Below, in pieces: positions 2,783 through 23,723 of a stretch of 64,000 bases of DNA; within the stretch, counting starts at the first letter, position 1; the number at the start of each line of letters is the position of its first letter. The position numbers and the translations under genes were made by a program. The DNA lies in the NCBI GenBank assembly GCA_964518165.1, contig CAZFFN010000126.1:11275-75274 (forward strand), read 5' to 3'. The notes beneath the pieces were generated by a model. That model was not told the DNA's origin. It made no database searches and was given only the letters and a program-made list of their open reading frames with translations. The DNA is from an uncultured Thermoplasmatales archaeon. Lineage in GTDB: Archaea > Thermoplasmatota > E2 > DHVEG-1.

Positions 2783-4507
2783 ATGAGTTATGCCATCCCG
2801 GTGATAAAAGAAAAGATTATTGGTTCATTAAAGTGTGCAATTAATGATAAAAATTTTGAGATTAAATTAGAAAAACCTACTAATGTAAAAATGGGGGATT
2901 TTTCATTTCCATGTTTTAAATTAGCTCCAAAATTCAAAAAATCTCCAAAAGAAATTGCTGAAGATATCACTTCAAAAATTAAAAAAGAAGATTTTTTAGA
3001 AAAAATTGAAACAAAAAATGGTTACATCAATTTTTTCTTAAATGAACAGAAGATCTCTTCTAAAATTATTAATGACATATATAAAACAAAGGAACGTTAT
3101 GGATATCTAAAAAACAAAAATAAAAAAGTAATAATTGAACATACTTCTGCAAATCCTAACGGGCCACTTCATATCGGACGAGCAAGAAATCCTATTATTG
3201 GTGATACTATTGTTAGAATTTTTAAATCAGCAGGATACAATGTTGAATCACAATTTTATTTGGATGATATGGGAAAACAAGTAGCAATTCTAGCATGGGG
3301 TGTAAATCATCTTAAAAAAGATGTGATTAAAACATCCGATAGAAAAAAACCAGATCATGCAACAGTTGGTTATTATCAAAAAGCAACAAAACTTTTAGAA
3401 GAAAACCTCGAAATTTCTGAAGAAATACAAAATTTAATAAAAAAAAGTGAAGAAGGAGATAAAAAAACTATAGAACTTTTACATAAAGCATATAAACCGG
3501 TACTGAAAGGAATGAAGGAAAGCCTTAAAAAATTAAATATTGAGATAGAAAGATACATACCAGAATCAAAATTCTTGGAAAATAACTCTGTTGATGAAGT
3601 TGTTACAAAACTAAAAAAATCAAAATATTCTGATATTGAAAATGGGGCATATTTTATAGATATGGCACCATTTGGAATAAAGGGTAGAAATACTAAATTT
3701 TTCTTTTTAAGAAGAGATGGTACTACTCTTTATGCAACCCGAGATATTGCCTACCATTTGTGGAAGGCAAAAAATGCTGATTTATTAATCAATATACTTG
3801 GTGAAGACCATAAATTAGAATCAAAACAAGTTGAAACTGCCTTAGAAATCGTTGGAGCAAAAAAAATCCCAAAAGTCATTTTTTATTCATTTGTTTCTTT
3901 ACCTGGAGGCAAAATGTCTACCAGGAAAAATAGAGTAGTATATCTTGATGATTTAATTGAGGAATGTATAACCAGAGCGTATCTTGAGGTTAAAAAAAGA
4001 AGGGGAGATGAACTTTCTGAAGAAAAAATGAAAGAAATTGCTGAAAAAATTGGTGTAGGTGCAATTCGATATAACATAATAAAAGTACAGCCTGAAAAAT
4101 CAATTGTTTTCAAATGGGAAGAAGCACTAAATTTTGAAGGAAATTCTGCTCCATTTATACAATATGCACATGCAAGGGCTGCAAGCATAATTAAAAAATA
4201 TGGTAAAAAAGTAAAACTTGATAATAAAATAGAAATATCACATGAATCTGAAATAAGTTTAATTAAAAAAATTGGTGAATTTCCAGATATTATAAATCAA
4301 GCAAGTAAAGAATTTAAACCTCATTTGATTTCATTTTATTTATTTGAACTTGCAGTGCAGTTCAATCAATTTTATAGAGATTGCCATGTTTTATCTGAGA
4401 AAGATAGAGGAATAAAAGAAACTAGATTAAAGATTGTAGTCGCAACAAAAATTGCTATAAAAAATGGTTTAAATATTCTTGGAATAGAAGCACTCGATGA
4501 GATGTAA
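2783..4507 (+). CDS. argS: Arginyl-tRNA synthetase
   Basis: 574 aa with HTSANPNGPLHIGRARN (HIGH motif) and class I ArgS anticodon-binding C-terminus (FNQFYRDCHVL). Confidence 0.9.
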   Translation: MSYAIPVIKEKIIGSLKCAINDKNFEIKLEKPTNVKMGDFSFPCFKLAPKFKKSPKEIAEDITSKIKKEDFLEKIETKNGYINFFLNEQKISSKIINDIYKTKERYGYLKNKNKKVIIEHTSANPNGPLHIGRARNPIIGDTIVRIFKSAGYNVESQFYLDDMGKQVAILAWGVNHLKKDVIKTSDRKKPDHATVGYYQKATKLLEENLEISEEIQNLIKKSEEGDKKTIELLHKAYKPVLKGMKESLKKLNIEIERYIPESKFLENNSVDEVVTKLKKSKYSDIENGAYFIDMAPFGIKGRNTKFFFLRRDGTTLYATRDIAYHLWKAKNADLLINILGEDHKLESKQVETALEIVGAKKIPKVIFYSFVSLPGGKMSTRKNRVVYLDDLIEECITRAYLEVKKRRGDELSEEKMKEIAEKIGVGAIRYNIIKVQPEKSIVFKWEEALNFEGNSAPFIQYAHARAASIIKKYGKKVKLDNKIEISHESEISLIKKIGEFPDIINQASKEFKPHLISFYLFELAVQFNQFYRDCHVLSEKDRGIKETRLKIVVATKIAIKNGLNILGIEALDEM

Positions 4508-5276
4508 AATGAACATCAAAGAGATAAATGTTAAAAATTCACTTAAAAAAATTACTAGAAAAGACGATCTTTTCAATGGGAACTATACAATAGATCCCTA
4601 CCAAAATTGTTATTTTTCATGTTCATATTGTGATTCATCTCTAGAAAAAACAATCTATGTTAAAAGAAACATAGCTGAACTTCTTAGAAAAAAAATAAAG
4701 ACCATTCCGAAATCTAATATTATAATTGGAAGTGTCCATGACCCTTATCAAAAAATTGAAGAAAAATTCAAGATTACAAGAAATATTTTAAAAATATTAA
4801 AAGAAAATAATCAGACGTGTAACATTTTAACAAAATCTGATTTAGTTTTAAGAGACCTTGATATTTTAAAAAAAATAAACAACTGTACAGTAACTATTTC
4901 AATTACAACATATGATGAAAACCTAAGAAAAATATTTGAAAAAAATGTAATCTCTGCAGATAAAAGAATAAATGTTTTAAAAAAACTTAGAAAAAATAAT
5001 ATTAAAACTGGCATTGCAATAATTCCAATAATCCCATATATAACTGAAGATCAAGCAAAAAAAATATTTGATAAATCAAATATCTATAAACCAGATTTTT
5101 ATCTATTTAGATATCTAGAACTAAAAGGAGATCAAAAAAGAATTTTTTTAAAAATAATTGAAAAAAACTTTCATAAAGAATATGAGTCTTTTAAAAAATT
5201 ATATAGCAAAACCATACTTCCCTGCAAAAAGTATATCCAAAAAACTGATTTAAAAATAAAAAAAGATTTAGAATAA
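4497..5276 (+). CDS. Radical SAM protein (COG1533 / SplB-like family)
   Basis: CYFSCSYC = CxxxCxxC about 40 aa from the N-terminus, approximately 255 aa. The start could be ATG 4497 (overlapping the argS stop) or ATG 4509. Confidence 0.6.
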   Translation: MRCKMNIKEINVKNSLKKITRKDDLFNGNYTIDPYQNCYFSCSYCDSSLEKTIYVKRNIAELLRKKIKTIPKSNIIIGSVHDPYQKIEEKFKITRNILKILKENNQTCNILTKSDLVLRDLDILKKINNCTVTISITTYDENLRKIFEKNVISADKRINVLKKLRKNNIKTGIAIIPIIPYITEDQAKKIFDKSNIYKPDFYLFRYLELKGDQKRIFLKIIEKNFHKEYESFKKLYSKTILPCKKYIQKTDLKIKKDLE

Positions 5277-5530
5277 ATCAAATAAAAAGAATGAAAAATT
5301 AACTGTTTATAAATTCATTAGCTCTTTTCCTTCCGTATCTTTTTTCTAAATATTTTAAATATCTATCCCTACTTTTAGGGTTTAACTTATATTTCATAAT
5401 TTCGCCCTCAATTAATTCTGTAAAATAATTTCTTGAATTTATTTTATATAAACTCTATGTGTAAAAATTTCAAAAAAGAAGTTATACGAATTTAAAAAAA
5501 GTATTTAAAAAATAAAAAAATTAAGTTAGA

Positions 5531-8500
5531 TTATTTTTTTCTTCTTGGAAAAATTAATACTAAAATAAGGATAATTATTACAATAAATATTGCAATTATA
5601 AACATATTTTTTTCCAAAAAACTTTGTTGTTTTACCTTGTTTGGATAACCAGTTGGTCCAAAAGGCATATGTCCATTGATATCAAATTCCTCATCGTATT
5701 CAACAGGTTTAGTATCTTCTTTTTCCCAATAATTGTTGTCACTATATTCAGTGCTTGGAACATATGGTCTAAGTTCTGGATCACCAAAATAGATGACACT
5801 TTCTTTATCATCCCACCACCATTGTGGGTTACCATCTTCTCCACCGCCGAGATAAAGTATTCCTACGTGTTGAATACCGCGGGCAAAAGCTTCACCAATA
5901 GTATAACCAAGTGCTAAATCACGAGGGATTGTTTCTCTCCAAACAGTTGCATACCAACTAGTAGCCCATGGGTCTTGGATTTGAAAAACTGAACCATGTC
6001 TAATTAACGATAATTGAAGCTGTGTGTACGCTGTTTGACAGATATTTGTAATAAATCCCATGCTGTAAAGATTATCAAGACCTTCGTCCAAAACAGATGC
6101 ATTTTTCATATCTGTAGTTTTTCTAGAAAATGAAAGTGAACCAGTTACACCATCATAAAGATTTTCAACTTCAAATGGAATATTTTCTTTATTGGGAAAT
6201 AATATTTTATTTATTTTTTCACGTATAGGTTTTCTTGCTAAAGCATAATCAAAACCAGTAGGCGGGAAGAATAATGAATTATGGTTTGTGAAAGGAATTA
6301 TTCCCTTGATATCCATAGTCATTGTATCAGGTTCTTCAGTTGAACCGAGATACCAGTCATATCCAAATTTTGGATTTAATTGCTTTGCTGGCCCTACCAA
6401 TAAATTGAAAAGATTTCCTGATTTTGTTTCCGGGTCCCAAAACTCAGTCTCGCCTCCTGCAGTATGATGCCCGTGGGCAGCATGAATCCACATTATGCAA
6501 CCATTATTGATGTTGTCCATAACTTTTTCAAACTGAGTGGAATAAACTGGATTATATCCACCTCTTTCTAAATAAAATGGGACCATCTCAGTTTCAGACA
6601 TATCTGGGAAATAAGCGCCTTTTTTACCAGTGTGTTTTTCAATTGATCCCATATCAATTGGTTCATTAGTTACAGATTCACCTGGAACTAGACCATCAGC
6701 ACATTCATATTTAGCACCATAGTATTTACTAGCTCTTTCATTAAATCTATATTTTTGAGTAACAAATGAACACATTACAGGGTTTTCTGCTTTGACCATT
6801 TGTTCTGGTGTATCAATAACAAGAGTACTTCCAATCGGATTTTTTAATAGACCTAAAATGCCTTGTCTTTTACTAGTACTCCCCGTAACATATGTTTTAT
6901 CTTCACTAAGTGCAGGGTTTTCAAAAATTAGAGCTGGATAAAACATATTACGTGAAATCCAGTAAGCTGAATCAACGGGACTTCCTGCAAATCTACCAGT
7001 GTTAGCAACTCCAATAAATACCCTGTCCCATGAAGCACCTATATCAAATTGATCAGCAACTGTTATAATATTTTCATCGCCTTCTTTATCAAAATTATGT
7101 TTATCCAAAAAATCATAAACCCTTCTACCGGTAAAGACCATTTCTCCACTGGAAGGAGTCCCACCATATCTATCATGAGAAAAATGCTCCCATAAAGTAT
7201 TATGATATGTAACAGCACAGGATAGTTCAGGATGCATATCTACAATCAAAACAGGTGTTCCGTGATGGGCTGCTACAAATGCAGCTGGGCCAATAAATAA
7301 TCCTGCTTCTGTTTCATCTGCCGGTGTTAACTCTTCTTTATACCAAAAGGTCCACGGATCAATTGTTGAAAATACAATATCGTTACTTCCAGATATTTTT
7401 CTAATGCTATCAAATATGTTTTCAATTTTTATGAAATTTTCTTTAATGTTTGCAATTTCTTCAAGGTTATTAAAAACATCTTTTGATATGTGATCACAGA
7501 AATTAACTAGATAAATATCTTTTACTCCTAGTTTAAATAATGCTTCTTTTGTTTTATCTGATAGTTTTTCTGAAGAAGTATATAGAAGAGGAGCATTTAG
7601 AGAACTAGCAAGAACTGCACCGTTAGTTGCAGAAGCAAGTGAGTCACCTTCAACTTTTGATATATTTTGCTCCCAAGAATATTCTATTTCAAAATCAAGA
7701 GGTGAATCAATATCATTTTTTGAAAAAACAGATACTGAATAATGCTCGTCATTTTTACATTCTCCTAAGGAATGTATTTTAACTTTCTGATGAGTCTCTT
7801 CTTCATTTTCTTCAAAAGCAGTATATATTGCTTCTCCACTAGGTCCAACTAGAGTAAAACCAAGATCTACATTTGGATTATCCCATTTTAATTTAATTTC
7901 AACATCCCTACAACCAAAAGGTGTTTGATCAGGAATCTTAATGTCTATACCTGGATACATTGTAACATCAACATGATAAGTTACACCAGGTTTAATCATA
8001 CCGCCAACTGTTCCTTGGAGTTGGAGTAAATTTCCTATTATATTTTTCCTAACATAATCAGCATCACCTTCAGTAGGCATATCAGTTACGCCAATACGCC
8101 ATTTACCAGGTTTATATATGTATGCATGGGCTGGTTCGTGACCTGCAGGTTGATAAACATTCCAAGCTGAAACAGCAGTAGTTTGAAGCCAACCTTGTTC
8201 GTCTTTACAATATATTTGCATGTCTGGATCGCCCGTAGGCATCATAATCCTGTCACCAATAAGAAGTCCATCCCACCAGCAATCTGCATATAAAAATTTA
8301 TACCCCTCAGGAATATCAAAGGTATGATAAATTGGGTTTAACGAGTTGGTTTGTTCTAAATTAAATGTCTCAATTTCATGTATTGAAGAAGCAGGAAGAG
8401 TTCTTTTTATGGTATTTTTAGTTTCAATATTCGGGGTTTCAAAATCTTTTTCAACTACAGATACAACTGCTTTATCTGAATAAGACCATTCATTTAAAGC

Positions 8501-8998
8501 AATTTTACTTGAGATACTATACGGGTCATCTCCATTTATGGATGTAGTTTTTTTAGCTTTCCAACTATTATCAATTTCTTTTTCATCTACATTTATAAGG
8601 GTCATCTGATCCATTTTTCCATTACAATAACTCATCCAGTCTTTCATAAAATAATCTAGACCCTGTCTAGAATTTAAAGTAACTTCTTTTTCTTTATTTG
8701 AAGTAAACTTATCTTGATAAAATAATAGTGGATTTGAATAAAGAGTATTGTCCTTTTTAAAAACAGATGTTGGAACTGATGCTAAGTACGCATAATCATC
8801 AAGATAGCTTTCTTTATCAAAATTGACAAAAGTTGCTTTTTTTAAGGGCTGTACATTTGTATAAGATGGACCTTTCATAAAACCAGGATCTTTTTGAATT
8901 TTTTCACTAGATACAAATGGACTAAAAACAGACGTCAAAAATAAACAAACAGTTAATAATATCATAACTTTTTTAATTTTTTCAAATTTTGCTTTCAT
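5531..8998 (-). CDS. Large secreted, C-terminally membrane-anchored surface protein (paralog A) with CWB2-like motifs and a conserved C-terminal domain of unknown function
   Basis: 1155 aa with an N-terminal signal peptide (MKAKFEKIKKVMILLTVCLFLTSVFSPFVSS) and a C-terminal TM plus basic tail (FIIAIFIVIIILILVLIFPRRKK). Motifs: DYAYLASVPTSVF...SNPLLF, GDSLASATNGAVLASSLNAPLLYT...LFKLGVKDIYLVN, GPAAFVAAHHGTPVLIVD, IMWIHAAHGHH, SMGF..C, DPWxTSWY, WWWD, HGHMPFG. A GGGGGT RBS is upstream. Confidence 0.8.
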   Translation of the reverse strand: MKAKFEKIKKVMILLTVCLFLTSVFSPFVSSEKIQKDPGFMKGPSYTNVQPLKKATFVNFDKESYLDDYAYLASVPTSVFKKDNTLYSNPLLFYQDKFTSNKEKEVTLNSRQGLDYFMKDWMSYCNGKMDQMTLINVDEKEIDNSWKAKKTTSINGDDPYSISSKIALNEWSYSDKAVVSVVEKDFETPNIETKNTIKRTLPASSIHEIETFNLEQTNSLNPIYHTFDIPEGYKFLYADCWWDGLLIGDRIMMPTGDPDMQIYCKDEQGWLQTTAVSAWNVYQPAGHEPAHAYIYKPGKWRIGVTDMPTEGDADYVRKNIIGNLLQLQGTVGGMIKPGVTYHVDVTMYPGIDIKIPDQTPFGCRDVEIKLKWDNPNVDLGFTLVGPSGEAIYTAFEENEEETHQKVKIHSLGECKNDEHYSVSVFSKNDIDSPLDFEIEYSWEQNISKVEGDSLASATNGAVLASSLNAPLLYTSSEKLSDKTKEALFKLGVKDIYLVNFCDHISKDVFNNLEEIANIKENFIKIENIFDSIRKISGSNDIVFSTIDPWTFWYKEELTPADETEAGLFIGPAAFVAAHHGTPVLIVDMHPELSCAVTYHNTLWEHFSHDRYGGTPSSGEMVFTGRRVYDFLDKHNFDKEGDENIITVADQFDIGASWDRVFIGVANTGRFAGSPVDSAYWISRNMFYPALIFENPALSEDKTYVTGSTSKRQGILGLLKNPIGSTLVIDTPEQMVKAENPVMCSFVTQKYRFNERASKYYGAKYECADGLVPGESVTNEPIDMGSIEKHTGKKGAYFPDMSETEMVPFYLERGGYNPVYSTQFEKVMDNINNGCIMWIHAAHGHHTAGGETEFWDPETKSGNLFNLLVGPAKQLNPKFGYDWYLGSTEEPDTMTMDIKGIIPFTNHNSLFFPPTGFDYALARKPIREKINKILFPNKENIPFEVENLYDGVTGSLSFSRKTTDMKNASVLDEGLDNLYSMGFITNICQTAYTQLQLSLIRHGSVFQIQDPWATSWYATVWRETIPRDLALGYTIGEAFARGIQHVGILYLGGGEDGNPQWWWDDKESVIYFGDPELRPYVPSTEYSDNNYWEKEDTKPVEYDEEFDINGHMPFGPTGYPNKVKQQSFLEKNMFIIAIFIVIIILILVLIFPRRKK

Positions 8999-9016
8999 TT
9001 TATAAAACCCCCAAAT

Positions 9017-9037
9017 AGATATAAATCCTTTATATCT
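9017..9037. promoter_or_regulatory. Perfect 9-bp palindrome AGATATAAA-tcc-TTTATATCT between the two giant paralog genes
   Basis: Located 19-39 nt upstream of the 5531..8998 gene's ATG and about 100 nt downstream of the 9115..12627 gene's stop. It includes a TATA-like TTTATATC. Confidence 0.4.
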
Positions 9038-9114
9038 ATAATTACTTTTATATATTAATATATTCCTAGTTTATAGTATTTTTGTAAAGATTAAAAAAAA
9101 ATAAAAAAATAAGA

Positions 9115-12100
9115 TTATTTTTTACGACCCATAGCAACTAATACTAACAACAAAATAAAAATAATTACTATAATCGCTATTAACCAAATAGGTATTATTG
9201 GTTGGGGTTCTCTTTGGTTTGGATAATCTTTTGCACCAAATGGCATATGGCCATGTACTGAAAAATCTTCTTCTAAAATAGGTGATTCAACATCATCTAT
9301 TGTCCAATGGTTTTTTGATTCAGGATCCCATCTGCTCTCAGGTGCCCAAACACGTAAATCAGGATCACCAAAGAAAACAACGTTTTCATTTAAATCCCAC
9401 CACCATTGATCGACTAAGTACTGCATTCCAACTTCTGCCATACCTTGTTCATATGCTTCACCAATAGTATGGCCAAGAGCTATTTGACGCGGAATGGAAT
9501 GTAACCATATACCACTATACCATGATGTACTCCATGGGTCAAGTATCTGATAGCTAGTTCCATGCCTAATCATAACTTGATGTAAATATGTATATGCAAT
9601 AAGGCAAGAAACAGCATTAAAGCCCATGCTGTGAAGATTATCGAGATCCTCATCAAAATTAAGGCCGTTATATCCTGTTATTACATTTTCTCCACCGGCT
9701 AGAGGATCAATTACAACACCGTCTCCATATGCCCTGTAAGACCTTCCTATTATTGGTAAAAGACTCAGACCATTTGATTCCTTGATATGTAGATCAACTG
9801 GGAATGCATCAACTAGAAGTGATGGTTTAACCTGTGGATTCATTACTGCAACATCTGGATCTTCTGTGCTTCCTTTATCAACTGATATTAGATCAAGGGG
9901 TGTGCTTGCATAACTTGCTAATTTTAGTAAAAATGAAAAAGATGGTAGACCTGCTTTACTAAGCATATGTGGAAGGTGATTTAGAAATTCTTTGAATGTA
10001 CCTCTAGAAATTAAGGGACGTTCGTATGCTCTCCACGGATTTTCTTCATATACATAAGGGCTTTCGGGATCCCAGAAACTCAGAGTTCCGTAGTTACCAT
10101 TTCCTCCATGACAGCTTTCCATCCACATTATAGTTCCTTTATTAAGATTCTCAATTGCTTTTTCATATTGGGTTGAAAAAACGTTACTATAGCCTGCTTG
10201 TTGCCCATAAAACGGAGTGGCATATGTTTCATGAAGATCTGGGACATATGCTGCTGTTTTTCCTTCTACAGCACCCTGATCTATTGGATGCTTTGAAACT
10301 GTTTCATAGGGAATAATACCATTAGCTGTTGTGTATTTTCCACCCCAGTGTTTTTCTGCAGCTATCTCATTGAATTTATATAAATAAACATTATAGGTGT
10401 GTAACAATGGATATTTGTAGTTTTCTTCCATTTGTTCTTTTGTAATTACTAGATCAGTACCAATCGGATTCACAAGTTTACCCAATATTGGAACAACCTT
10501 ACTTGAACTTCCATTAACTAAATCAACTCCAGAAGGATCTAATGCAGGGTTTTCAAATATTAAAGCCGGATAGAAAACACTTCTTGATATCCAGTAACTG
10601 ATATCAACAGGTGTACTTGAAAATCTTCCTGGTATGAGTCTTCCTGTAAATGTTCTATCCCATGTTGAACCGATATCAAATTGATCAGCTACAGTAATCA
10701 TTGTAGAAAGGCCCTCTTTTGATTTTGAAAGATCATAATCATATGATTCAAGGAATTTTAATACATTTCTACCAGTCAAAACCATACTTGCAACTGACGG
10801 CAGATGAGGTCTAAATGATGCGTTTGCAGTATTTCTCCAAAATTCATTATGCCAGACAACCGCTTGAGATAGTTCAGGATGGTTATCAACTATTAAAACA
10901 GGTGCTCCATGATGAGCTGCTATAAAAGCTGCTGGTCCAAAAAAGTAAGCACCAGGATATTCACCAACGGGAACTGGATATAATGAATAATAATATGTCC
11001 ATGGATCAATTGTTGAAAAAACCACATCATCACTATTTGTATTTGATTTTATTTTATTGTATAATTCTAGGTAATCCGTGTATTCAGTAATTTTTGCAAT
11101 ATTTTTAATTTCATTTTTTACATCATTTTCTAAATAATTACCAACATTTAAAAGATGTATTTTTTTAACACCCAGTTTGTATAAGGCATCTTTTGTATCT
11201 TCCGGGATTTCATTGTTTTTAATATACAATAGAGGGGCATTTATATTACTAGCAAGAACTGCCCCATTTGTTGCAGAAGCTAGATTATCGCCTTTTTCTC
11301 TTGAAATATCTTTTTTCCACGAGTATTCTATTGTAAAATCAATTTCTTGATCCACATCTTCTAAAGCAAAAACACCTATCTTGTATCTTTCATCATCCTT
11401 TGTTTCACCAAGTTTTTCCAAATGTATCGTTCTCTCAGTAATCCCTTTTTCAACACCTTCTATAATTTCCTCATTAGAGGGCGTGGATGCTGTTTCTGCT
11501 CCAGTTGGATCAAGTACAAAGAAACCAAGTGGAACATTTGAGTTATCCCAATTTAAAGTGATTTCAACATCTCTACAGCCATAAGGAGTTGGATCTAAAA
11601 TTTCTTGTTCTATACCTGGGAATAAAGTAACTTCTACAGGTCGTGTATCACCTTTTTTAATTCCCATTTTTTTCAAAAGAGAATTGTCTTCTTCTACATT
11701 TTGATACATGCTTTCCATTTTTCCTTCTGGTGCTTTCTGAGTAGGCATATAAGTAACTCCTACCTCCCAGGTTCCATGGTTATAAACGTAAGAACTAGCT
11801 GTTTCTCCAGCCCCATAAAAAATATTCCATTTTGAATCTGCATCAGCCATACCAAGCTGGCTATCATATAATTGCAGATCAAGATCTATTGCAACGTTAT
11901 CCCAGAACATATGAGCAATAACATATTTGTAAGGCTCATTTATTTCAAAGGCTTTATAGCTCCCACCAACTCCAATTTCAGGGGTAGGAACATCTAAATT
12001 TATTGTATCTATTTTGTATCCCGATGGAATACTTCCTTTTAATTCTCCACTAAATGACTCTTTAGGTTTATCATATCCGTCTTTAACAATAGCAAGAACT

Positions 12101-12627
12101 GCTTCATCAGAATATGACCATTCTTTTTTAGCCAACTCACTTGATAGTTTGTAAGGATTAGAATAATCATAAGTATTGATTTTTTTTGCATCATATTTTT
12201 CTTCTAGTTCATTTTCAGCCATGCCAATTAAATTAAGTTCATCTAATTTTTCATCGCAATATCCCATCCAGTCATCCATAAAATATTCTACACCTTCTGA
12301 GGCATCTTGAATTTTATATTTGAGTTCATCTCCAAATTCATCTTTATCTTGATAGAAAATTAATGGATGAGAATATAGTTTATCATTATGATTAAAAACA
12401 GCAGTTGGAACACTTGCTAAATAAGCCAAATCATCAACAAGTTTTTCTTTGTTAAACTTAACTAAGCTTGTCTTTTTTAGAGGAACTACTTCTTCATAAG
12501 AAGCACCTTGTGTAAAGCCTTTTATATTTTCTAAATTTCCTGCATTTGCCATTGGTACAAAAATACTTGTTAAAAATATACATACAACTAATATTGATAT
12601 TAAATTTTTATCTATTTTCGCTTTCAT
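9115..12627 (-). CDS. Large secreted, C-terminally membrane-anchored surface protein (paralog B of 5531..8998)
   Basis: 1170 aa with the same architecture and motif set (YLASVPTAVF, GDNLASATNGAVLASNINAPLLY, GPAAFIAAHHGAPVLIVD, IMWMESCHGGNG, SMGFNAVSC, DPWSTSWY, WWWD, HGHMPFG). Signal peptide at the N-terminus, TM plus GRKK at the C-terminus, and a GGGGGT RBS. Confidence 0.8.
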   Translation of the reverse strand: MKAKIDKNLISILVVCIFLTSIFVPMANAGNLENIKGFTQGASYEEVVPLKKTSLVKFNKEKLVDDLAYLASVPTAVFNHNDKLYSHPLIFYQDKDEFGDELKYKIQDASEGVEYFMDDWMGYCDEKLDELNLIGMAENELEEKYDAKKINTYDYSNPYKLSSELAKKEWSYSDEAVLAIVKDGYDKPKESFSGELKGSIPSGYKIDTINLDVPTPEIGVGGSYKAFEINEPYKYVIAHMFWDNVAIDLDLQLYDSQLGMADADSKWNIFYGAGETASSYVYNHGTWEVGVTYMPTQKAPEGKMESMYQNVEEDNSLLKKMGIKKGDTRPVEVTLFPGIEQEILDPTPYGCRDVEITLNWDNSNVPLGFFVLDPTGAETASTPSNEEIIEGVEKGITERTIHLEKLGETKDDERYKIGVFALEDVDQEIDFTIEYSWKKDISREKGDNLASATNGAVLASNINAPLLYIKNNEIPEDTKDALYKLGVKKIHLLNVGNYLENDVKNEIKNIAKITEYTDYLELYNKIKSNTNSDDVVFSTIDPWTYYYSLYPVPVGEYPGAYFFGPAAFIAAHHGAPVLIVDNHPELSQAVVWHNEFWRNTANASFRPHLPSVASMVLTGRNVLKFLESYDYDLSKSKEGLSTMITVADQFDIGSTWDRTFTGRLIPGRFSSTPVDISYWISRSVFYPALIFENPALDPSGVDLVNGSSSKVVPILGKLVNPIGTDLVITKEQMEENYKYPLLHTYNVYLYKFNEIAAEKHWGGKYTTANGIIPYETVSKHPIDQGAVEGKTAAYVPDLHETYATPFYGQQAGYSNVFSTQYEKAIENLNKGTIMWMESCHGGNGNYGTLSFWDPESPYVYEENPWRAYERPLISRGTFKEFLNHLPHMLSKAGLPSFSFLLKLASYASTPLDLISVDKGSTEDPDVAVMNPQVKPSLLVDAFPVDLHIKESNGLSLLPIIGRSYRAYGDGVVIDPLAGGENVITGYNGLNFDEDLDNLHSMGFNAVSCLIAYTYLHQVMIRHGTSYQILDPWSTSWYSGIWLHSIPRQIALGHTIGEAYEQGMAEVGMQYLVDQWWWDLNENVVFFGDPDLRVWAPESRWDPESKNHWTIDDVESPILEEDFSVHGHMPFGAKDYPNQREPQPIIPIWLIAIIVIIFILLLVLVAMGRKK

Positions 12628-12932
12628 AAATTTACCCCCTTTCTGTAATAAATAAATATTACGAACAGTATATATAATATTAAGTTATATAATTGTTTTG
12701 TTTTCTTTTTTGTTTTCTTTTTCCTTAAACCAATTTTTATTTTTATTTTATATATTACTAGTGATAATAAGGTTTATTTATAAATTATGTTACTATAACC
12801 ACAAAAAGTCCCATAAACCCGTTAGTTCGCTGTTATATAGTTATAATAGTAACAAAATTAATTTAGAATCTTGGAAATATGGTTAAAAAAAGTTAAATAA
12901 GTTGGGTTGCTTAACAGAAAAAAGATTACTAT

Positions 12933-13865
12933 ATGAATAATGAGTTTAGAAAAATACTAGAAAAACAACAATATGGTATTGTTGGCAATCATTCTGGTGT
13001 AAAGCTATGCCACTGGATGAGACAAAGTCTTTTATTTGATAGAGAATGTTACAAACAAACATTCTATGGAATTAACACCCATAGATGTCTTCAAATGACA
13101 CCAACTATTAACCAATGTACGCATAACTGCCTTTTTTGCTGGAGAAACCAAGGCTTTCCAGATGACGGATTTAAAAAAATCGATGACCCAGAATTTATAC
13201 TTAATGAAGCAATAAAACAACAAAGGCGTCTTATAACTGGTTTTAAAGGTGATGGCAGGTGCAATCAAAAAAAATGGGAAGAAGCAAATAACCCTAATAT
13301 GCTCGCATGTTCACTAACTGGTGAACCTACGATGTATCCTAAACTAGGAGAATTTTTTGAATTATGTCATAAAAAAGGAATCACTACGTTTCTTGTAACA
13401 AATGGAACTATTCCAAAAGCACTAGAAAACATGGATACTTTACCAAAACAGCTTTATGTATCAATTGTTGCACCAAACAAAGAAGTTTATAAGAAAGTAT
13501 GCTCGCCAAAGATTACTGACGGCTGGGAAAAAATAAACAAAACTTTAGAGATACTTCCTTCTTTAGATACTAGAACTGTTATTAGACACACCTTAGTAAA
13601 TGGATGGAACATGGATGAAAGATATATTGATCAATATGCCAAGCTTGACAAAAAAGCAGATCCAATGTTCATTGAGCCTAAAGGTTATGTTTTTGTTGGA
13701 TATTCAAGGGAAAGAATGAACCTAGCTAATATGCCTTCACATGAAATGATTAAAAATTTTAGTAAAAAACTAAGCGAAAAAACTGGTTACTATTTTTCAA
13801 TGGAAAAACCTGATTCTAGAGTAACTTTGCTTACAAAAAATAAAAAACCGGTAAGATTTGAGTAA
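12933..13865 (+). CDS. taw1: tRNA 4-demethylwyosine synthase Taw1 (TYW1 homolog), radical SAM
   Basis: 310 aa. The N-terminal auxiliary Cys region (GVKLCHW...THRCLQMTP) is followed by CTHNCLFCWR (CxxxCxxC), collinear with archaeal Taw1. Confidence 0.8.
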   Translation: MNNEFRKILEKQQYGIVGNHSGVKLCHWMRQSLLFDRECYKQTFYGINTHRCLQMTPTINQCTHNCLFCWRNQGFPDDGFKKIDDPEFILNEAIKQQRRLITGFKGDGRCNQKKWEEANNPNMLACSLTGEPTMYPKLGEFFELCHKKGITTFLVTNGTIPKALENMDTLPKQLYVSIVAPNKEVYKKVCSPKITDGWEKINKTLEILPSLDTRTVIRHTLVNGWNMDERYIDQYAKLDKKADPMFIEPKGYVFVGYSRERMNLANMPSHEMIKNFSKKLSEKTGYYFSMEKPDSRVTLLTKNKKPVRFE

Positions 13866-13901: not shown

Positions 13902-15926
13902 ATGATTAAAAATAATATTATGTTGTTTAAATCTATAAAAGCTAATCTTATCTTCTTTGTAATAATTTTATTGGTCATTCAATCATTATCAAGCTTTGCA
14001 ATCGGCATAAATACAAAAAATATACAGACCAAAGAAGAAAAAAGAAGTTCGTCATTAAAAAATAGTTTTATAATTGAGTTTAAGGATGAATCTATCTTAT
14101 CTTTTAGAGGAAAAATCAAAAATTTTTTATCAAATAGTAATATATTACAAGGAAATTTTTTAAAAGATAAAGTTGAACAATATAAATCAAAACTTGATTC
14201 AATGCATTTAAAGGCAAAGTTAGATATTCTTAATATCCTTGGATCAAGTTATACAATTAAAGATCTATTTACCCATGATTTTAAACTTTTTTCAAACTCT
14301 TTGGTAATAAAAAATATTCCAAATAATGTGATTGATTCTATAAAATCCTTAGATTATGTTAAAAATGTAAGAGTTCCAAAAAAAATAAAGATGCAATCTG
14401 ATCCTCTATCTTGGGGGGTAAGTAAGATAAATGCAGATCAAGTTTGGAACTTACATGATAATAAAGGTAGAAAAATAAATGGAGAAGGAATAAGTATCGC
14501 AATAATTGATACGGGTATTGATTATGATCACAGTCTATTAGGTGGAGGATTTGGACCAGGTTATACAGTTGTCGATGGAGATGATTTTGTTGAATATAAT
14601 AGATACGATGAAGAAAATGAAGTTTGGTATGAAAAGCTTCCAGAAGATGATCATGATCCAGATGACGAACAGGGACATGGTACACATTGTGCTGGAATAG
14701 CCTTAGGTGTTGCACCAGGTGCTTCACTTTATGCTTATCGTGTTCTAAATAAAGACGGCTGGGGAGATGAAAATTGGCTTCAAGAAGCTATAACTCGAGC
14801 AACTGATCCAAATGGGGATTTTGATATTTCAGATCATGTTGATATACTATCATTAAGTTTTGGAACAGTTAGCGAAGGAAAACCAGATGACAATATGAGC
14901 AAATGGGTCAATCAAGCGGTTGATTGCGGAGTAACAGTAGTTGCTGCAGCTGGAAATAATGGTTCTAATTATCATACAATTAGTTCACCAGGTTGTGCAG
15001 AAAAAGCAATAACTGTTGGAAATTCTAATTCTTATGATAGGGTAGATCCTAGTAGTTCAAGAGGCCCAACTTTGAATGGAAAAACTAAACCAGATCTAGT
15101 AGCACCCGGTATGCATATAGAAAGCACATGGTTAAATAACGGGTTTAAAACATTGTCAGGAACAAGTATGTCTACTCCTCATGTTGCTGGAGCTACTGCA
15201 CTTCTTTTGCAGTTGCATCCTGACTTTTCTCCAAATGATGTTAAAGAAACTCTAAAACAAAATGCTGTTAAATTATTTGCCCCAAATGGATCGATTTATG
15301 ATGAGTTTACTCAAGGCGCTGGAAGAATTGATATACTTAAATCAGTTAATCTATCAGAAGCACCACCAATTGCTGAATTAGAAATTTCAGAATATGTAAA
15401 AAAAGGTATAATAAATATAAATGGTACTGCTATGAATGGAACTGGAAATTCAAGTGATTTTACTAATTTTAGTTTGTACTATAAATACGATGAAGATTGG
15501 ATAGAACTATGTACAAAAACTCAAGAGATTGATGATTCATTAATGTATGAATGGGACACAACACATTTTGAAAAAGGTCTTTACAAACTGAAATTATTTG
15601 TAAGAAGTAAAGATCAGGCTAGTGTAGATATTAAAGAGATAAATATTGATTATGATGGTTTAATTATTGAGTGTAATGAAAGTTTCTTTGAAGATGAGGA
15701 GATTAAAGTAGATATTTTTAATGTAAATATGGAACCAGTAGATTGTTTTGTATTTTTTATTCCAAAGTTTCATCTCCCTCAAATTAGATACGGAAGTACA
15801 GTTCAATTTAGGGGACCAACCTTATATAATCCATTAAAACAGAATATTACTGGTAAAATTTTTGCAATTAAATTACTAAAATTTGAAACAAAAGGTAAAG
15901 AGATAGAGATAAAAAATATTGTTTAA
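13902..15926 (+). CDS. Secreted subtilisin-like serine protease (S8) with N-terminal propeptide and C-terminal extension
   Basis: Signal peptide, then IAIIDTGIDYDH (Asp), HGTHCAGIA (His), GTSMSTPHVAGATALL (Ser) and a catalytic Asn region. Confidence 0.9.
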   Translation: MIKNNIMLFKSIKANLIFFVIILLVIQSLSSFAIGINTKNIQTKEEKRSSSLKNSFIIEFKDESILSFRGKIKNFLSNSNILQGNFLKDKVEQYKSKLDSMHLKAKLDILNILGSSYTIKDLFTHDFKLFSNSLVIKNIPNNVIDSIKSLDYVKNVRVPKKIKMQSDPLSWGVSKINADQVWNLHDNKGRKINGEGISIAIIDTGIDYDHSLLGGGFGPGYTVVDGDDFVEYNRYDEENEVWYEKLPEDDHDPDDEQGHGTHCAGIALGVAPGASLYAYRVLNKDGWGDENWLQEAITRATDPNGDFDISDHVDILSLSFGTVSEGKPDDNMSKWVNQAVDCGVTVVAAAGNNGSNYHTISSPGCAEKAITVGNSNSYDRVDPSSSRGPTLNGKTKPDLVAPGMHIESTWLNNGFKTLSGTSMSTPHVAGATALLLQLHPDFSPNDVKETLKQNAVKLFAPNGSIYDEFTQGAGRIDILKSVNLSEAPPIAELEISEYVKKGIININGTAMNGTGNSSDFTNFSLYYKYDEDWIELCTKTQEIDDSLMYEWDTTHFEKGLYKLKLFVRSKDQASVDIKEINIDYDGLIIECNESFFEDEEIKVDIFNVNMEPVDCFVFFIPKFHLPQIRYGSTVQFRGPTLYNPLKQNITGKIFAIKLLKFETKGKEIEIKNIV

Positions 15927-20454: not shown

Positions 20455-22146
20455 GTGAGACATAAATTTTTTGATGTAAAAAAAGGTGTTTTTTTTGTAG
20501 TGAGTATATTGTTTTTGATGAATATTTTTATGCCGGTTACAAATAGCATAAAATTAAATTCAAGTTCAAATAATAAAGATTTTTCAATAATTATTCACAA
20601 AATATTTCAAGATGATGAAATTGATCCCTTTCCCCATTTAGAAGGCGGAGATTGGAAACTATCTATATATGTAAATGATGAAAAAAGAACTTTAGAATGC
20701 TCAGGGAAAGAAGTAATACTTGATAAAATACTTGTTTGGGAAGATATCATTCAAGAGAATATGAAATTTTTAGAGATAAGATTTGAACTTTTAGATTTAG
20801 ATTCTGGTGTTTGGCCTGATGAACATGATATTGCAGATATTAGCGCATATGCTGATGAAAACTATTATGATGGCAAATATGATGATACAGAAGATTTTGA
20901 AAATAATAGACCTGCTGTTTTTAAAAGATATTACAATCTTGTAAGCGAGAAATGGGAGGAAGTAGACAATAATAATGATTACTTACAAGAGGTGCAAGAA
21001 TCATATTTAACATGGTTTCTTACTAGTGGTAATTTTGATGGGAGTACTACAACAGATGAAAACGATGTTTCAATTTGGTTTGATATATCAATTGGGAACT
21101 CTGCTCCATTTCCACCAGAAACACCATCGGGGCCTACCTCTGGATGGGTAGATCAGATTTATTTGTACACTACAAAAACCAATGATCCAGATAATGATAA
21201 AATAAAATATGGATGGGATTGGGATGGAGATGATGAAATTGATCAAATAACTGATTTTTTTGACCCTTGGGAATCTGCTGATGTTTATCATGGATGGTCC
21301 ACTGGTAAAATCAACTATGTTAAAGTCTGTGCAATAGATGAAAAAGGTGCGGTAAGTGAATGGTCCAATGAATTAAAGGTAGAAATTAATGGACCATATG
21401 GCAAAAGTGGATTTGAACTTGAAGAATGGTCATTAGGAGAAATATATTGTGTATATCTTGATCATTATGAAACAACTGAACTATTAGATATATTAAGAGG
21501 CGGTGGAAATATTGTTACTGCCGCTGCAGGGTTGATTTCGGCTATTGCAACTGCTGCCGGGGTTCCACTAGACATAAGCATTTCTATTGCAATAGTAACT
21601 GGAATTTTGAGGCTTGGAGTTGAAGTTATCAACCTTATGGATAGAGGTATGGGTATTTATGTAAAAACGTATATTGTAATGCTTGAAGGTGTTCCACTTT
21701 CATATTTTTCAGTAATGTGGTCTCAGTCTTTAGGGGATGATGCGTGGAGTATACCTGATGGGAATCAAGCTCCAAATACACCTAATAAACCCATTGGCGA
21801 AATAAAATGTAAAAAGGGTAAATCGTATACTTTTACTAGTGTTTCTGATGATCCAAATGATGATAAAATTGCTTATGTTTTCGAATGGGGCGATGGAACC
21901 TATAGTTGTGTTGATTATAATAATTCAGGTGAATCAGTTAGTCAAAAACATAATTGGTCTGAAATAGGAGAATATAATATTCGAGTGAAAGCAATTGATA
22001 TTTATGGTTATGAAAGCAAGTGGTCTGAACCATTAAACATTGAAATTAATAAAAAGAGTAAGATCAAATTCTTTTTGAAATTAGAAAATTTTTATGAGGT
22101 ATTTAAAAATGTTTTTGGAAAAGAAATTTGTAGAGAGGTGATATAA
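20455..22146 (+). CDS. Secreted protein with two PKD-like modules (GTG start)
   Basis: GTG start with GGGGG 7 nt upstream. Signal peptide, two approximately 90-aa modules (DPDNDKIKYGWDWDGD...; DPNDDKIAYVFEWGDG...HNWSEIGEYNIRVKAIDIYGYESKWSEP), and an internal Gly/Ala-rich hydrophobic stretch. Confidence 0.7.
   Translation: MRHKFFDVKKGVFFVVSILFLMNIFMPVTNSIKLNSSSNNKDFSIIIHKIFQDDEIDPFPHLEGGDWKLSIYVNDEKRTLECSGKEVILDKILVWEDIIQENMKFLEIRFELLDLDSGVWPDEHDIADISAYADENYYDGKYDDTEDFENNRPAVFKRYYNLVSEKWEEVDNNNDYLQEVQESYLTWFLTSGNFDGSTTTDENDVSIWFDISIGNSAPFPPETPSGPTSGWVDQIYLYTTKTNDPDNDKIKYGWDWDGDDEIDQITDFFDPWESADVYHGWSTGKINYVKVCAIDEKGAVSEWSNELKVEINGPYGKSGFELEEWSLGEIYCVYLDHYETTELLDILRGGGNIVTAAAGLISAIATAAGVPLDISISIAIVTGILRLGVEVINLMDRGMGIYVKTYIVMLEGVPLSYFSVMWSQSLGDDAWSIPDGNQAPNTPNKPIGEIKCKKGKSYTFTSVSDDPNDDKIAYVFEWGDGTYSCVDYNNSGESVSQKHNWSEIGEYNIRVKAIDIYGYESKWSEPLNIEINKKSKIKFFLKLENFYEVFKNVFGKEICREVI
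21112..21390 (+). repeat. PKD-like protein module copy 1 (in gene 20455..22146)
   Basis: Protein-level repeat DP-x-x-D-x-I-x-Y-x-[WF]-[DE]-W-[GND]-D... ...V-[KR]-[VA]-[KC]-A-x-D-x-x-G-x-x-S-x-W-S. Confidence 0.6.
21766..22047 (+). repeat. PKD-like protein module copy 2 (in gene 20455..22146)
   Basis: Same motif set: YVFEWGDGTY ... NIRVKAIDIYGYESKWSEPLNI. Confidence 0.6.
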
Positions 22147-22176
22147 ATTAAAAAAAATTTTTTAATCATATTTTTA

Positions 22177-23721: not shown

Positions 23722-23723
23722 AA

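What the first reader, a model, noticed from the sequence alone, without database searches (positions are those of the whole stretch)
5531..12627. Tandem pair of giant paralogous surface proteins with an uncharacterised conserved C-terminal domain
Two adjacent, same-strand genes (1155 and 1170 aa) share a signal peptide, a C-terminal TM helix plus basic tail, the same GGGGGT RBS and long collinear blocks. The C-terminal approximately 500 aa carry a block of invariant His/Cys/Trp/Asp motifs (GPAAF[VI]AAHHG[TA]PVLIVD, ADQFDIG[AS][ST]WDR, SYWISR..FYPALIFENPAL, IMW..HG, SMGF....C..AYT, IRHG...QI.DPW[AS]TSWY, GHTIGEA, WWWD, FGDP.LR, HGHMPFG). I cannot place these motifs in any family I know. The pattern of invariant residues looks like an enzymatic core (hydrolase or transglutaminase-like) rather than a structural repeat.
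Basis: partly seen in the sequence, partly recalled or inferred. Interest (0 to 1): 0.7.

Follow-up and report, generated by a model that had tools for sequence, protein, structure and literature searches.

The report
Membrane-anchored divergent gingipain-like archaeal surface peptidases
The two giant neighbouring genes encode cell-surface proteins of a Thermoplasmatota archaeon whose "unplaceable" C-terminal half is a very divergent gingipain-type (C25, caspase-fold) cysteine peptidase domain, fused to a module shaped like the S-layer anchoring tile of Clostridioides difficile; this is a new variant of a known enzyme kind, not a new enzyme class.

Summary
Two same-strand ORFs (1155 and 1170 aa, 41% identical end to end) each have a signal peptide, one C-terminal TM helix with a basic tail, and a GGGGGT ribosome-binding site.

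The C-terminal region passes no curated Pfam or NCBIfam threshold, but it is not an unknown fold:
- A profile of the region finds Asgard-archaeal proteins that pass the Peptidase_C25 threshold; profile-profile E = 2.2e-36 over 366 columns.
- His842-Gly843 and Cys987 are invariant in 214/214 homologues. The His column maps, through one weak step, to RgpB catalytic His211.

The family is confined to Thermoplasmatota, is multi-copy, and often lies in tandem arrays of 2-4 genes.

Most likely function: a membrane-anchored surface cysteine endopeptidase for extracellular protein degradation. An enzymatically active surface coat or a transpeptidase role is not excluded.

The catalytic Cys equivalence and His-Cys proximity could not be verified directly.

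Verdict: new variant of a known kind, moderate interest.

The parts
5531..8998 (-). Gene A, 1155 aa: signal peptide, alpha/beta domain, two beta-sandwiches, CWB2-like domain, C25-like peptidase domain, TM anchor
   Evidence: ORF. Identical protein P0001 is in the public collection. AF2 model pLDDT 85.1, pTM 0.87.
9115..12627 (-). Gene B, 1170 aa: divergent paralogue with the same architecture, transcribed first
   Evidence: ORF. 41% identical to A over the full length. Orthologues at 68% and 62% identity sit in the same upstream slot in L013 and L007.
8909..8998 (-). Gene A signal peptide (residues 1-30; B equivalent 12541-12627)
   Evidence: K-rich n-region plus a hydrophobic stretch. Modelled as a lone helix. 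The cleavage site is inferred.
8435..8866 (-). Gene A N-terminal alpha/beta domain (residues 45-188), candidate first unit of the CWB2-like tile
7667..8434 (-). Gene A two beta-sandwich domains (residues 189-444), PPC / beta-jelly-roll-like
7388..7666 (-). Gene A CWB2-like domain (residues 445-537; B equivalent 11032-11292)
   Evidence: Pfam CW_binding_2 E 0.0012, 19.8 bits, below the 24.9 cutoff. Family profile against Cwp6 (5j72) E 5.7e-4, aligning to all three Cwp6 repeats.
5759..7387 (-). Gene A C25 (gingipain)-like clan CD peptidase domain (residues 538-1080; B equivalent 9352-11031)
6470..6475 (-). Predicted catalytic His842-Gly843 of gene A (B: His840-Gly841, 10105-10110)
   Evidence: 214/214 invariant. 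Sits at the end of strand 836-840. Aligns with the invariant His of the C25-positive clade, which aligns with RgpB His211 at E 0.013.
6119..6436 (-). Lineage-specific insertion between the catalytic His and Cys (residues 855-960), containing the conserved NPxxxY..GSTEEPD and DG motifs
   Evidence: Low pLDDT of 49-62. His-Cys spacing is 145 in A and 168 in B, against 79 in the Asgard clade and 33 in RgpB (established numbering His211/Cys244). Invariant N875, P876, Y880, G885, T887, P890, D891, D949, G950.
6038..6040 (-). Predicted catalytic Cys987 of gene A (B: Cys1008, 9604-9606)
   Evidence: 214/214 invariant. Strand 980-984, then Cys, then helix 993-1000. Aligns with the invariant Cys of the C25-positive clade. 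Equivalence with RgpB Cys244 is inconclusive by sequence.
5657..5674 (-). Conserved juxtamembrane motif GHMPFG (residues 1109-1114; B: 9235-9252)
   Evidence: G1109 and H1110 invariant, P1112 and G1114 at 90% or more. H1110 present in 209/214. Function unknown.
5534..5620 (-). C-terminal TM helix (residues 1127-1150) plus basic cytoplasmic tail PRRKK (B TM and tail: 9118-9198)
   Evidence: Kyte-Doolittle 19-residue window mean up to 3.6. Modelled as helix 1132-1153. Coordinates.

Best explanation
Genes A and B encode type-I membrane-anchored cell-surface proteins of a Thermoplasmatota archaeon. The C-terminal ~540 ectodomain residues form a highly divergent gingipain-family (MEROPS C25, clan CD, caspase-haemoglobinase fold) cysteine peptidase domain.

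Proposed mechanism:
1. The signal peptide directs Sec export, and the C-terminal helix with its Arg/Lys tail holds the protein in the cytoplasmic membrane. This follows from sequence features; the topology is inferred.
2. The N-terminal alpha/beta domain, the CWB2-like domain and probably peptidase sub-domain A pack into a tile resembling the CWB2 triple of C. difficile surface proteins. Two PPC-like beta-sandwiches project from it. The fold match is shown; which segments form the tile is inferred.
3. His842 and Cys987 form the catalytic dyad that cleaves peptide bonds. Invariance, fold and the His equivalence are shown; catalysis is inferred.
4. The enzymes degrade extracellular (detrital) proteins at the cell surface. 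The resulting peptides are imported, for example by the OPT transporter in the same window. This role is inferred from context and literature.

The conserved tandem paralogues probably differ in specificity or regulation, mainly through the variable 100-170-residue insertion between His and Cys.

For: Sequence bridge: the C-terminal profile finds only 99 representatives among 1.84e9 proteins. Of 19 distant relatives in the tail, 7 exceed the PF01364 gathering score: 47.8, 43.1, 36.2, 31.6, 26.7, 26.7 and 23.6 bits against 23. One of them is named 'C25 family cysteine peptidase' by NCBI. hhalign of the family against that clade gives probability 99.94%, E 2.2e-36 over 366 columns, with His on His, Cys on Cys, and GRF, NLHS, RHG, LGEA and FGDP in register.

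Direct matches: gene A's own C-terminal region gives C25 as its only Pfam match (E 0.0037, His block to model positions 219-246). 8/14 members match C25, and P0084 scores 22.1 bits.

Link to a solved enzyme: the clade profile ranks RgpB 2nd and 3rd of 177,635 PDB sequences, aligning GRF...RxxxY and the His with RgpB 107-215, which places the His on His211.

Selection: H842, G843 and C987 are invariant in 214/214 members.

Geometry: strand then His-Gly, and strand, Cys, then helix.

Context: the window also holds a secreted subtilase, a C11 clostripain and an OPT oligopeptide transporter.

Literature: signal-peptide-bearing, otherwise unannotated C25 peptidases are reported as abundant and highly expressed in Thermoprofundales and in estuarine sediments (PMC6461988, PMC6752024, PMC9585477).
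Against: - Neither A nor B reaches the curated Pfam C25 score (17 bits against 23), and NCBIfam finds nothing.
- The family profile does not hit gingipains in PDB directly.
- The step from the Asgard clade to RgpB is weak (E 0.013-0.017).
- The Cys equivalence to RgpB Cys244 could not be shown by sequence.
- His-Cys proximity could not be measured, because no coordinates are exposed.
- The 145-168-residue insertion between His and Cys is unusual for clan CD and is poorly modelled.
- The strongest structural similarity of the whole protein is to a non-catalytic S-layer tile. High sequence conservation, fixed length and housekeeping synteny fit a structural envelope role at least as well as a nutritional one.
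- I could not show that this particular family is what the cited papers counted as C25.
- No biochemical data exist.
Confidence: 0.65

Rival explanations
1. Enzymatically active surface coat. The proteins are primarily envelope or S-layer-like building blocks of these archaea. The CWB2-like tile mediates lateral packing or binding to a surface glycan, as in C. difficile SlpA/Cwp proteins. The retained C25 domain serves self-processing or maturation, or gives the coat a proteolytic function.
For: - There is sequence-level CWB2 support for residues 445-537.
- In SlpA the CWB2 triple forms the lattice tile (PMC8881574).
- The C-terminal TM anchor is typical of archaeal surface-layer proteins (general knowledge).
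- Length is strikingly constant at ~1150 aa, mean column identity is 51%, and the family is multi-copy in tandem arrays.
- High expression is reported for unannotated extracellular C25 proteins in Thermoprofundales.
Against: - The three alpha/beta segments show no detectable sequence similarity to each other or, apart from the middle one, to CWB2.
- One of the three is probably just gingipain sub-domain A.
- There is no evidence of lattice formation.
- The glycan ligand of CWB2 (PSII) is a Firmicute cell-wall polymer not known in archaea.
- Strict invariance of the dyad shows catalysis is the selected function.
- This reading overlaps with the best explanation and is not fully exclusive of it.
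Confidence: 0.2
2. Sortase-like transpeptidase or processing enzyme. Like the clan CD enzymes PorU (C25), GPI8 transamidase and legumain-type ligases, the membrane-anchored enzyme cleaves a C-terminal sorting signal of other surface proteins and transfers them to a lipid or glycan anchor.
Against: - The gingipain hydrolases are the best clan CD matches.
- No conserved neighbouring substrate or partner gene exists: L003 has entirely different neighbours.
- 3-6 or more copies per genome is unusual for a dedicated sorting enzyme.
- The PorU match is weak (probability 0.60, TM 0.10).
Confidence: 0.1
3. Catalytically dead pseudo-peptidase acting only as an adhesin or binding protein.
For: The very large insertion between His and Cys and the failure to reach the curated C25 threshold could indicate loss of function.
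Against: His-Gly and Cys are invariant in 214/214 members across paralogues of 40-70% identity, together with about ten further invariant polar residues around them. Pseudo-enzymes normally lose such residues.
Confidence: 0.03
4. Transglutaminase-like or papain-like (clan CA) enzyme.
For: Invariant Cys, His and Asp residues are present.
Confidence: 0.01

Closest known systems
Gingipains RgpB and Kgp of Porphyromonas gingivalis (MEROPS C25, clan CD; PDB 1CVR/4IEF, 4RBM)
   Different: - Sequence similarity is below curated thresholds.
- The His-Cys spacing is 145-168 residues instead of 33.
- The host is archaeal.
- There is no N-terminal gingipain-type prodomain, no haemagglutinin/adhesin domains and no T9SS C-terminal domain. 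Anchoring is by a TM helix instead.
- It is fused to a CWB2-like tile.
- Specificity is unknown.
Asgard-archaeal C25 family cysteine peptidases (e.g. MGQ4913333.1 = P0200, MCD6515738.1 = P0209, MFX1485865.1 = P0199)
   Same: Clear homologues of the whole C-terminal region (hhalign E 2.2e-36, 366 columns). Same three collinear blocks, same invariant His and Cys, a shared insertion motif (GS/GG..PD), a similar overall size of ~1200 aa, and PPC/CUB beta-sandwiches N-terminal to the peptidase.
   Different: They pass the Pfam C25 threshold and have a shorter His-Cys spacing (79). They carry Big_7/Ig-like C-terminal domains instead of the GHMPFG-TM ending. Identity is only ~20%. They have not been characterised experimentally either.
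C. difficile cell-wall protein family (SlpA HMW, Cwp6, Cwp8; functionally Cwp84, a cysteine protease with three CWB2 repeats)
   Different: - Only one of the three units is recognisable by sequence.
- The units are not contiguous, with ~260 residues of beta-sandwich inserted between them.
- The enzyme is clan CD, whereas Cwp84 is papain-like (clan CA).
- The organism is archaeal, is not known to have the PSII ligand, and additionally uses a TM anchor.
PorU (C25 sortase-like peptidase of the type IX secretion system; PDB 6ZA2)
   Same: A multi-domain C25 enzyme at the cell surface. Foldseek hit over 622 columns.
   Different: The match is weak (probability 0.60, TM 0.10). T9SS does not exist in archaea, and there is no evidence for transpeptidation here.

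Membership tests
Peptidase family C25 (gingipain; Pfam PF01364) | Score at or above the curated Pfam gathering threshold (23 bits) | tested here: not met
   Full-length A and B give no C25 hit. A's C-terminal region alone scores 17 bits, E 0.0037. The best family member, P0084, scores 22.1 bits. Distant Asgard relatives do pass, at 23.6-47.8 bits.
Peptidase family C25 (gingipain; Pfam PF01364) | Demonstrable homology to accepted family members | tested here: met
   hhalign A3 vs A4 (the C25-positive clade): probability 99.94%, E 2.2e-36, 366 columns. hmmsearch E values of 1e-7 to 1e-12 against the whole library.
Clan CD cysteine peptidases | Caspase-haemoglobinase alpha/beta/alpha fold | tested here: met
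Clan CD cysteine peptidases | Catalytic dyad in the order His then Cys, with His followed by Gly and each residue at the C-terminal end of a hydrophobic beta-strand | tested here: met
   Strand 836-840 then H842-G843; strand 980-984 then C987 then a helix. All three residues are invariant in 214/214 members.
Peptidase family C25 (gingipain) | The His column is equivalent to RgpB His211 | tested here: met
   Family His aligns with the clade His, and the clade His aligns with RgpB residue 211 in 1cvr/4ief. That second step is weak, at E 0.013.
Peptidase family C25 (gingipain) | The Cys column is equivalent to RgpB Cys244 | tested here: inconclusive
   The Pfam C25 profile covers the Cys block (model positions 284-374). 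However, a local hhalign against a recalled RgpB sequence placed the Cys column 12 residues after Cys244, in a low-confidence stretch. No structural superposition was available.
Peptidase family C25 (gingipain) | Cysteine-dependent endopeptidase activity (Arg-X or Lys-X specificity in gingipains) | not testable with these tools
   Needs biochemistry. The S1 pocket residue was not identified.
CWB2 cell-wall-binding module (Pfam PF04122; Cwp family) | Score at or above the Pfam gathering threshold (24.9 bits) | tested here: not met
   19.8 bits (A) and 15.9 bits (B) at residues ~445-508. The family profile against Cwp6 gives E 5.7e-4.
CWB2 cell-wall-binding module (Pfam PF04122; Cwp family) | Three CWB2 units packed as a pseudo-threefold tile | tested here: inconclusive
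CWB2 cell-wall-binding module (Pfam PF04122; Cwp family) | Binding of an anionic cell-wall polymer (PSII) | not testable with these tools
   The ligand is known from Firmicutes (PMC8881574). Nothing comparable was examined here.
S-layer proteins | Self-assembly into a 2-D paracrystalline lattice covering the cell | not testable with these tools
   Requires imaging or in vitro assembly.
PGF-CTERM / archaeosortase substrates | PGF motif immediately preceding the C-terminal TM helix and basic tail | tested here: not met
   The motif is GHMPFG, not PGF, and it lies ~13 residues before the helix. The only PF18204 hit is E 0.29, in one homologue.

The most novel reading that the evidence does not exclude
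These proteins are the main surface coat of Thermoprofundales-like archaea: a proteolytic S-layer. In this reading a CWB2-type pseudo-threefold tile, a module otherwise known from Firmicute S-layers, mediates lateral packing on the membrane, while an active gingipain-like domain faces outward. The cell envelope itself would then be the protein-degrading organ that underlies detrital protein remineralisation in marine sediments. The conserved A/B tandem pairs would form hetero-oligomeric lattice units.
Probability: 0.15. Interest if true: 0.8.

Novelty: new variant of a known kind. Interest (0 to 1): 0.42.

Why it matters
Gingipain-like C25 peptidases are reported as the dominant class of exported peptidase genes in anoxic estuarine sediments (more than 40% of signal-peptide-bearing peptidases, PMC6752024) and as highly expressed in Thermoprofundales (PMC6461988). 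None of the archaeal ones has been characterised.

This work defines one compact, Thermoplasmatota-restricted family that curated libraries leave unnamed or misname. Source names include 'hypothetical', 'cell wall-binding repeat-containing protein' and 'bacteriocin immunity protein'. For this family it provides:
- a domain map;
- a predicted catalytic dyad (His842/Cys987 in gene A, His840/Cys1008 in gene B);
- a lineage-specific insertion that may control access or specificity;
- an unexpected fusion to a C. difficile-type surface tile.

That gives concrete constructs and mutants for biochemical tests of archaeal protein degradation in sediments. It also gives a seed alignment that could extend the Pfam and MEROPS C25 models. 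If the surface-coat reading were right, it would additionally bear on how these archaea build their envelope.

Tried and rejected
1. Direct curated-library searches of full-length A and B (Pfam, NCBIfam) gave only a sub-threshold CWB2 hit.
2. Sequence and profile searches of the family against PDB gave only Cwp6 CWB2 and no peptidase.
3. AF2 of the C-terminal region alone, with a 14-row alignment, failed (pLDDT 34.8).
4. Foldseek with the full-length model was dominated by weak beta-sandwich and jelly-roll matches (RMSD >15 A) and was uninformative apart from PorU.
5. phmmer of two bridging proteins against PDB found nothing relevant.
6. The internal-repeat test among the three alpha/beta segments and between the two beta-sandwiches found no significant similarity.
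7. hhalign against an RgpB sequence recalled from memory (residues 107-215 and 336-346 verified) reproduced the GRF, His and FGDP equivalences but mis-registered the Cys region, so it is inconclusive.
8. The AFDB fold library was unavailable.
10. The exact-match contig look-up of P0001 found nothing, and the locus tags MBGDN05_00116/117 are not mentioned in the searchable literature.
11. Rfam found no RNA families anywhere in the window.
12. Considered and rejected: a recent duplication or assembly artefact, because the pair is 41% identical and conserved in other genomes; a mobile-element origin, because the flanks are housekeeping genes; and a transglutaminase or papain fold.
Full report
**Observation.** The window holds two same-strand ORFs on the minus strand: gene B at 9115..12627 (1170 aa), transcribed first, and gene A at 5531..8998 (1155 aa). 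They are 41% identical and 59% similar over 1186 aligned columns, collinear from the first Met to the juxtamembrane region. Each has:
- a Lys-rich N-terminus followed by a hydrophobic signal-peptide core;
- a single very hydrophobic C-terminal helix followed by PRRKK (A) or GRKK (B);
- GGGGGT 9-10 nt upstream of the ATG;
- T-rich tracts after the stop codon.

**Context.** The region is about 30% G+C. The neighbours are housekeeping genes typical of an archaeal chromosome: ArgRS, two radical-SAM proteins including a Taw1/TYW1-type wyosine enzyme, a GPN-loop GTPase and PurD. Further along lie Hef, Pus10 and LeuRS. The window also encodes a secreted subtilase next to the pair, a clear clostripain-family C11 peptidase, a PKD-repeat protein and an OPT oligopeptide transporter. 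Together these indicate a peptide-scavenging organism. No Rfam family is present in the window.

**Family.**
- Gene A retrieves 485 homologues, almost all ~1150 aa and unnamed. The named ones come from Thermoplasmatota, including the MBG-D single-cell genome SCGC AB-539-N05.
- An exhaustive profile search with the C-terminal region finds only 99 representatives (50% identity clusters) among 1.84 billion proteins.
- In species-representative genomes, 211 stretches match. All 78 loci retrieved are from Thermoplasmatota, Thermoplasmatales or Thermoplasmata MAGs, and several genomes contribute 3-4 loci.
- Same-strand tandem arrays of 2-4 copies occur at 20 of 81 loci.
- The pair recurs with the same flanks in a relative (L001: Taw1, 1158 aa, 1155 aa, radical SAM ... 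ArgRS) and with unrelated flanks in the MBG-D genome (L003).
- Gene B is a divergent type, 40-41% identical to most members. It has orthologues at 68% and 62% identity in the same upstream slot in L013 and L007.

The tandem A/B arrangement is therefore conserved and is not a recent duplication.

**What the C-terminal region is.** Curated libraries do not name it. Full-length A and B give only a sub-threshold CWB2 match near residue 450, and the family profile hits only the CWB2 repeats of Cwp6 in PDB. Four independent lines nevertheless place it in the gingipain lineage.

2. *Sequence bridge.* The tail of the exhaustive profile search contains distant full-size relatives matched in three collinear blocks. 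Seven of the 19 scanned exceed the Pfam Peptidase_C25 gathering score, by up to 47.8 bits against 23, and no other catalytic family recurs. They come from Asgard archaea, and NCBI names one of them 'C25 family cysteine peptidase'. Profile-profile comparison of the family's C-terminal region with this clade gives probability 99.94%, E 2.2e-36, over 366 columns covering positions 34-545 of the 566-residue query.

3. *Direct weak matches.* Scanned alone, gene A's C-terminal region has C25 as its only Pfam match (E 0.0037). The His block aligns with model positions 219-246, and 8 of 14 members behave the same way. P0084 reaches 22.1 bits.

4. *Link to a solved enzyme.* The clade profile ranks RgpB second and third of 177,635 PDB sequences (E 0.013-0.017). 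It aligns the GRF...R...Y block and the His with RgpB residues 107-215, which places the His on catalytic His211, and FGDP with 336-346.

**Catalytic residues.**
- His842-Gly843 follow strand 836-840. Cys987 follows strand 980-984 and precedes helix 993-1000. This is the clan CD arrangement.
- All three residues are invariant in 214 of 214 distinct full-length homologues, as are H579, R659, D676, D799, D891, D949, N976, R1000 and Q1006.
- The equivalents in gene B are His840-Gly841 and Cys1008.
- The Cys equivalence to RgpB Cys244 could not be confirmed by sequence. An alignment to a recalled RgpB sequence was mis-registered there.
- The His-Cys distance could not be measured, because coordinates are not exposed.

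**What is unusual.**
- The His-Cys spacing is 145 residues in A and 168 in B, against 79 in the Asgard clade and 33 in RgpB (RgpB numbering from established knowledge).
- The insertion is the only long low-confidence stretch of the model. It still carries invariant motifs (NP...Y..GSTEEPD, DG) that are partly shared with the Asgard clade.
- Only residues 445-537 have sequence-level CWB2 support. The other two units are probably the N-terminal alpha/beta domain (45-188) and peptidase sub-domain A (538-700). This is inferred, because the three segments show no significant mutual similarity.

**Domain map of gene A.**

| Residues | Part |
|---|---|
| 1-30 | signal peptide |
| 45-188 | alpha/beta domain |
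| 189-444 | two beta-sandwiches |
| 445-537 | CWB2-like domain |
| 538-1080 | C25-like peptidase (sub-domain A 538-700; His842; insertion 855-960; Cys987; FGDP 1071-1074) |
| 1109-1114 | GHMPFG |
| 1127-1150 | TM helix |
| 1151-1155 | basic tail |

**Mechanism.** The best-supported reading is a membrane-anchored, outward-facing cysteine endopeptidase. It would degrade extracellular protein at the cell surface, with peptides imported by transporters such as the OPT encoded nearby. This agrees with reports that exported C25 peptidases dominate sediment peptidase gene pools and are highly expressed in Thermoprofundales (PMC6752024, PMC6461988, PMC9585477). I could not verify that those reports refer to this exact family.

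What is shown: fold, homology, invariance of the dyad, and the export and anchor signals. What is inferred: catalysis, topology, physiological role, and the composition of the tile.

Rivals:
- an enzymatically active surface coat (about 0.2), which overlaps with the main reading;
- a PorU/GPI8-like transpeptidase (about 0.1);
- a dead pseudo-enzyme (about 0.03), contradicted by the 214/214 invariance;
- a transglutaminase or papain-like enzyme (about 0.01), contradicted by residue order and fold.

**Comparison and novelty.** The protein works like a gingipain and is homologous to C25 enzymes. It fails the curated Pfam membership score, and no curated library names it. The architecture combines a split CWB2-like tile, PPC-like sandwiches, a C25 core with a 100-170-residue insertion between His and Cys, and a TM anchor. 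My literature searches found no description of it.

I class it as a new variant of a known kind. It is of moderate interest to specialists in archaeal envelopes, sediment carbon cycling and clan CD enzymes. It is not a new enzyme class.

Noticed in passing
window 20455-25865 (+): A three-gene same-strand cluster. It consists of an unannotated 563-aa ORF (20455-22146, GTG start, no Pfam hit at E<=1e-5), a clear clostripain-family Peptidase_C11 (22177-23721, E 7e-52), and a 713-aa PKD / InlB-B-repeat surface protein (23724-25865). This is a second clan CD peptidase locus in the same window.
   Followed up: partly
window 13902-15926 (+): A 674-aa subtilase (Peptidase_S8, E 6e-59) with an N-terminal hydrophobic signal-like segment lies immediately beside the pair, across the Taw1 gene. 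The subtilase is absent from the equivalent position in the syntenic relative L001.
   Followed up: partly
window 32178-34223 (-): An OPT-family oligopeptide transporter (E 5e-79), consistent with uptake of peptides produced by the surface peptidases.
   Followed up: no
window 5657-5674 and 9235-9252 (-): A conserved juxtamembrane motif GHMPFG lies ~13 residues before the TM helix. G and H are invariant, and H is present in 209/214 homologues. It resembles a sorting or processing signal but is not a PGF-CTERM; the only PF18204 hit is E 0.29, in homologue P0113. Its function is unexplained.
   Followed up: partly
L058 2308-15426; also L024, L028, L037, L044, L049: Some Thermoplasmatota genomes carry arrays of three or four consecutive same-strand family members. 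Single genomes (e.g. isolate SRP332253_co2_223: L029, L035, L049, L050) have at least six copies.
   Followed up: partly
window 6119-6436 (-) and homologues: The insertion between the catalytic His and Cys varies in length. In some homologues (e.g. P0096, P0058) and in gene B it contains long hydrophobic or amphipathic stretches. The Asgard clade has a DGDGIVNP-type motif at the equivalent place, which looks like a possible Ca2+ site. Neither point was analysed further.
   Followed up: no
P0074, P0050, P0097 (homologues): Public names for family members are inconsistent and probably wrong: 'bacteriocin immunity protein' (P0074), 'cell wall-binding repeat-containing protein' (P0050), and one member assigned to a 'Petrotogales bacterium' MAG (P0097), which is likely a binning error given the otherwise exclusive Thermoplasmatota distribution.
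   Followed up: no
window 2783-13865 vs L001 5247-18386: Local synteny (Taw1, the pair, a radical-SAM gene ... ArgRS, with SNO/SNZ further on) is conserved between the window and GCA_964481275.1. In the MBG-D SAG (L003) the pair sits among acyl-CoA and biotin metabolism genes instead, so the pair moves as a unit.
   Followed up: partly
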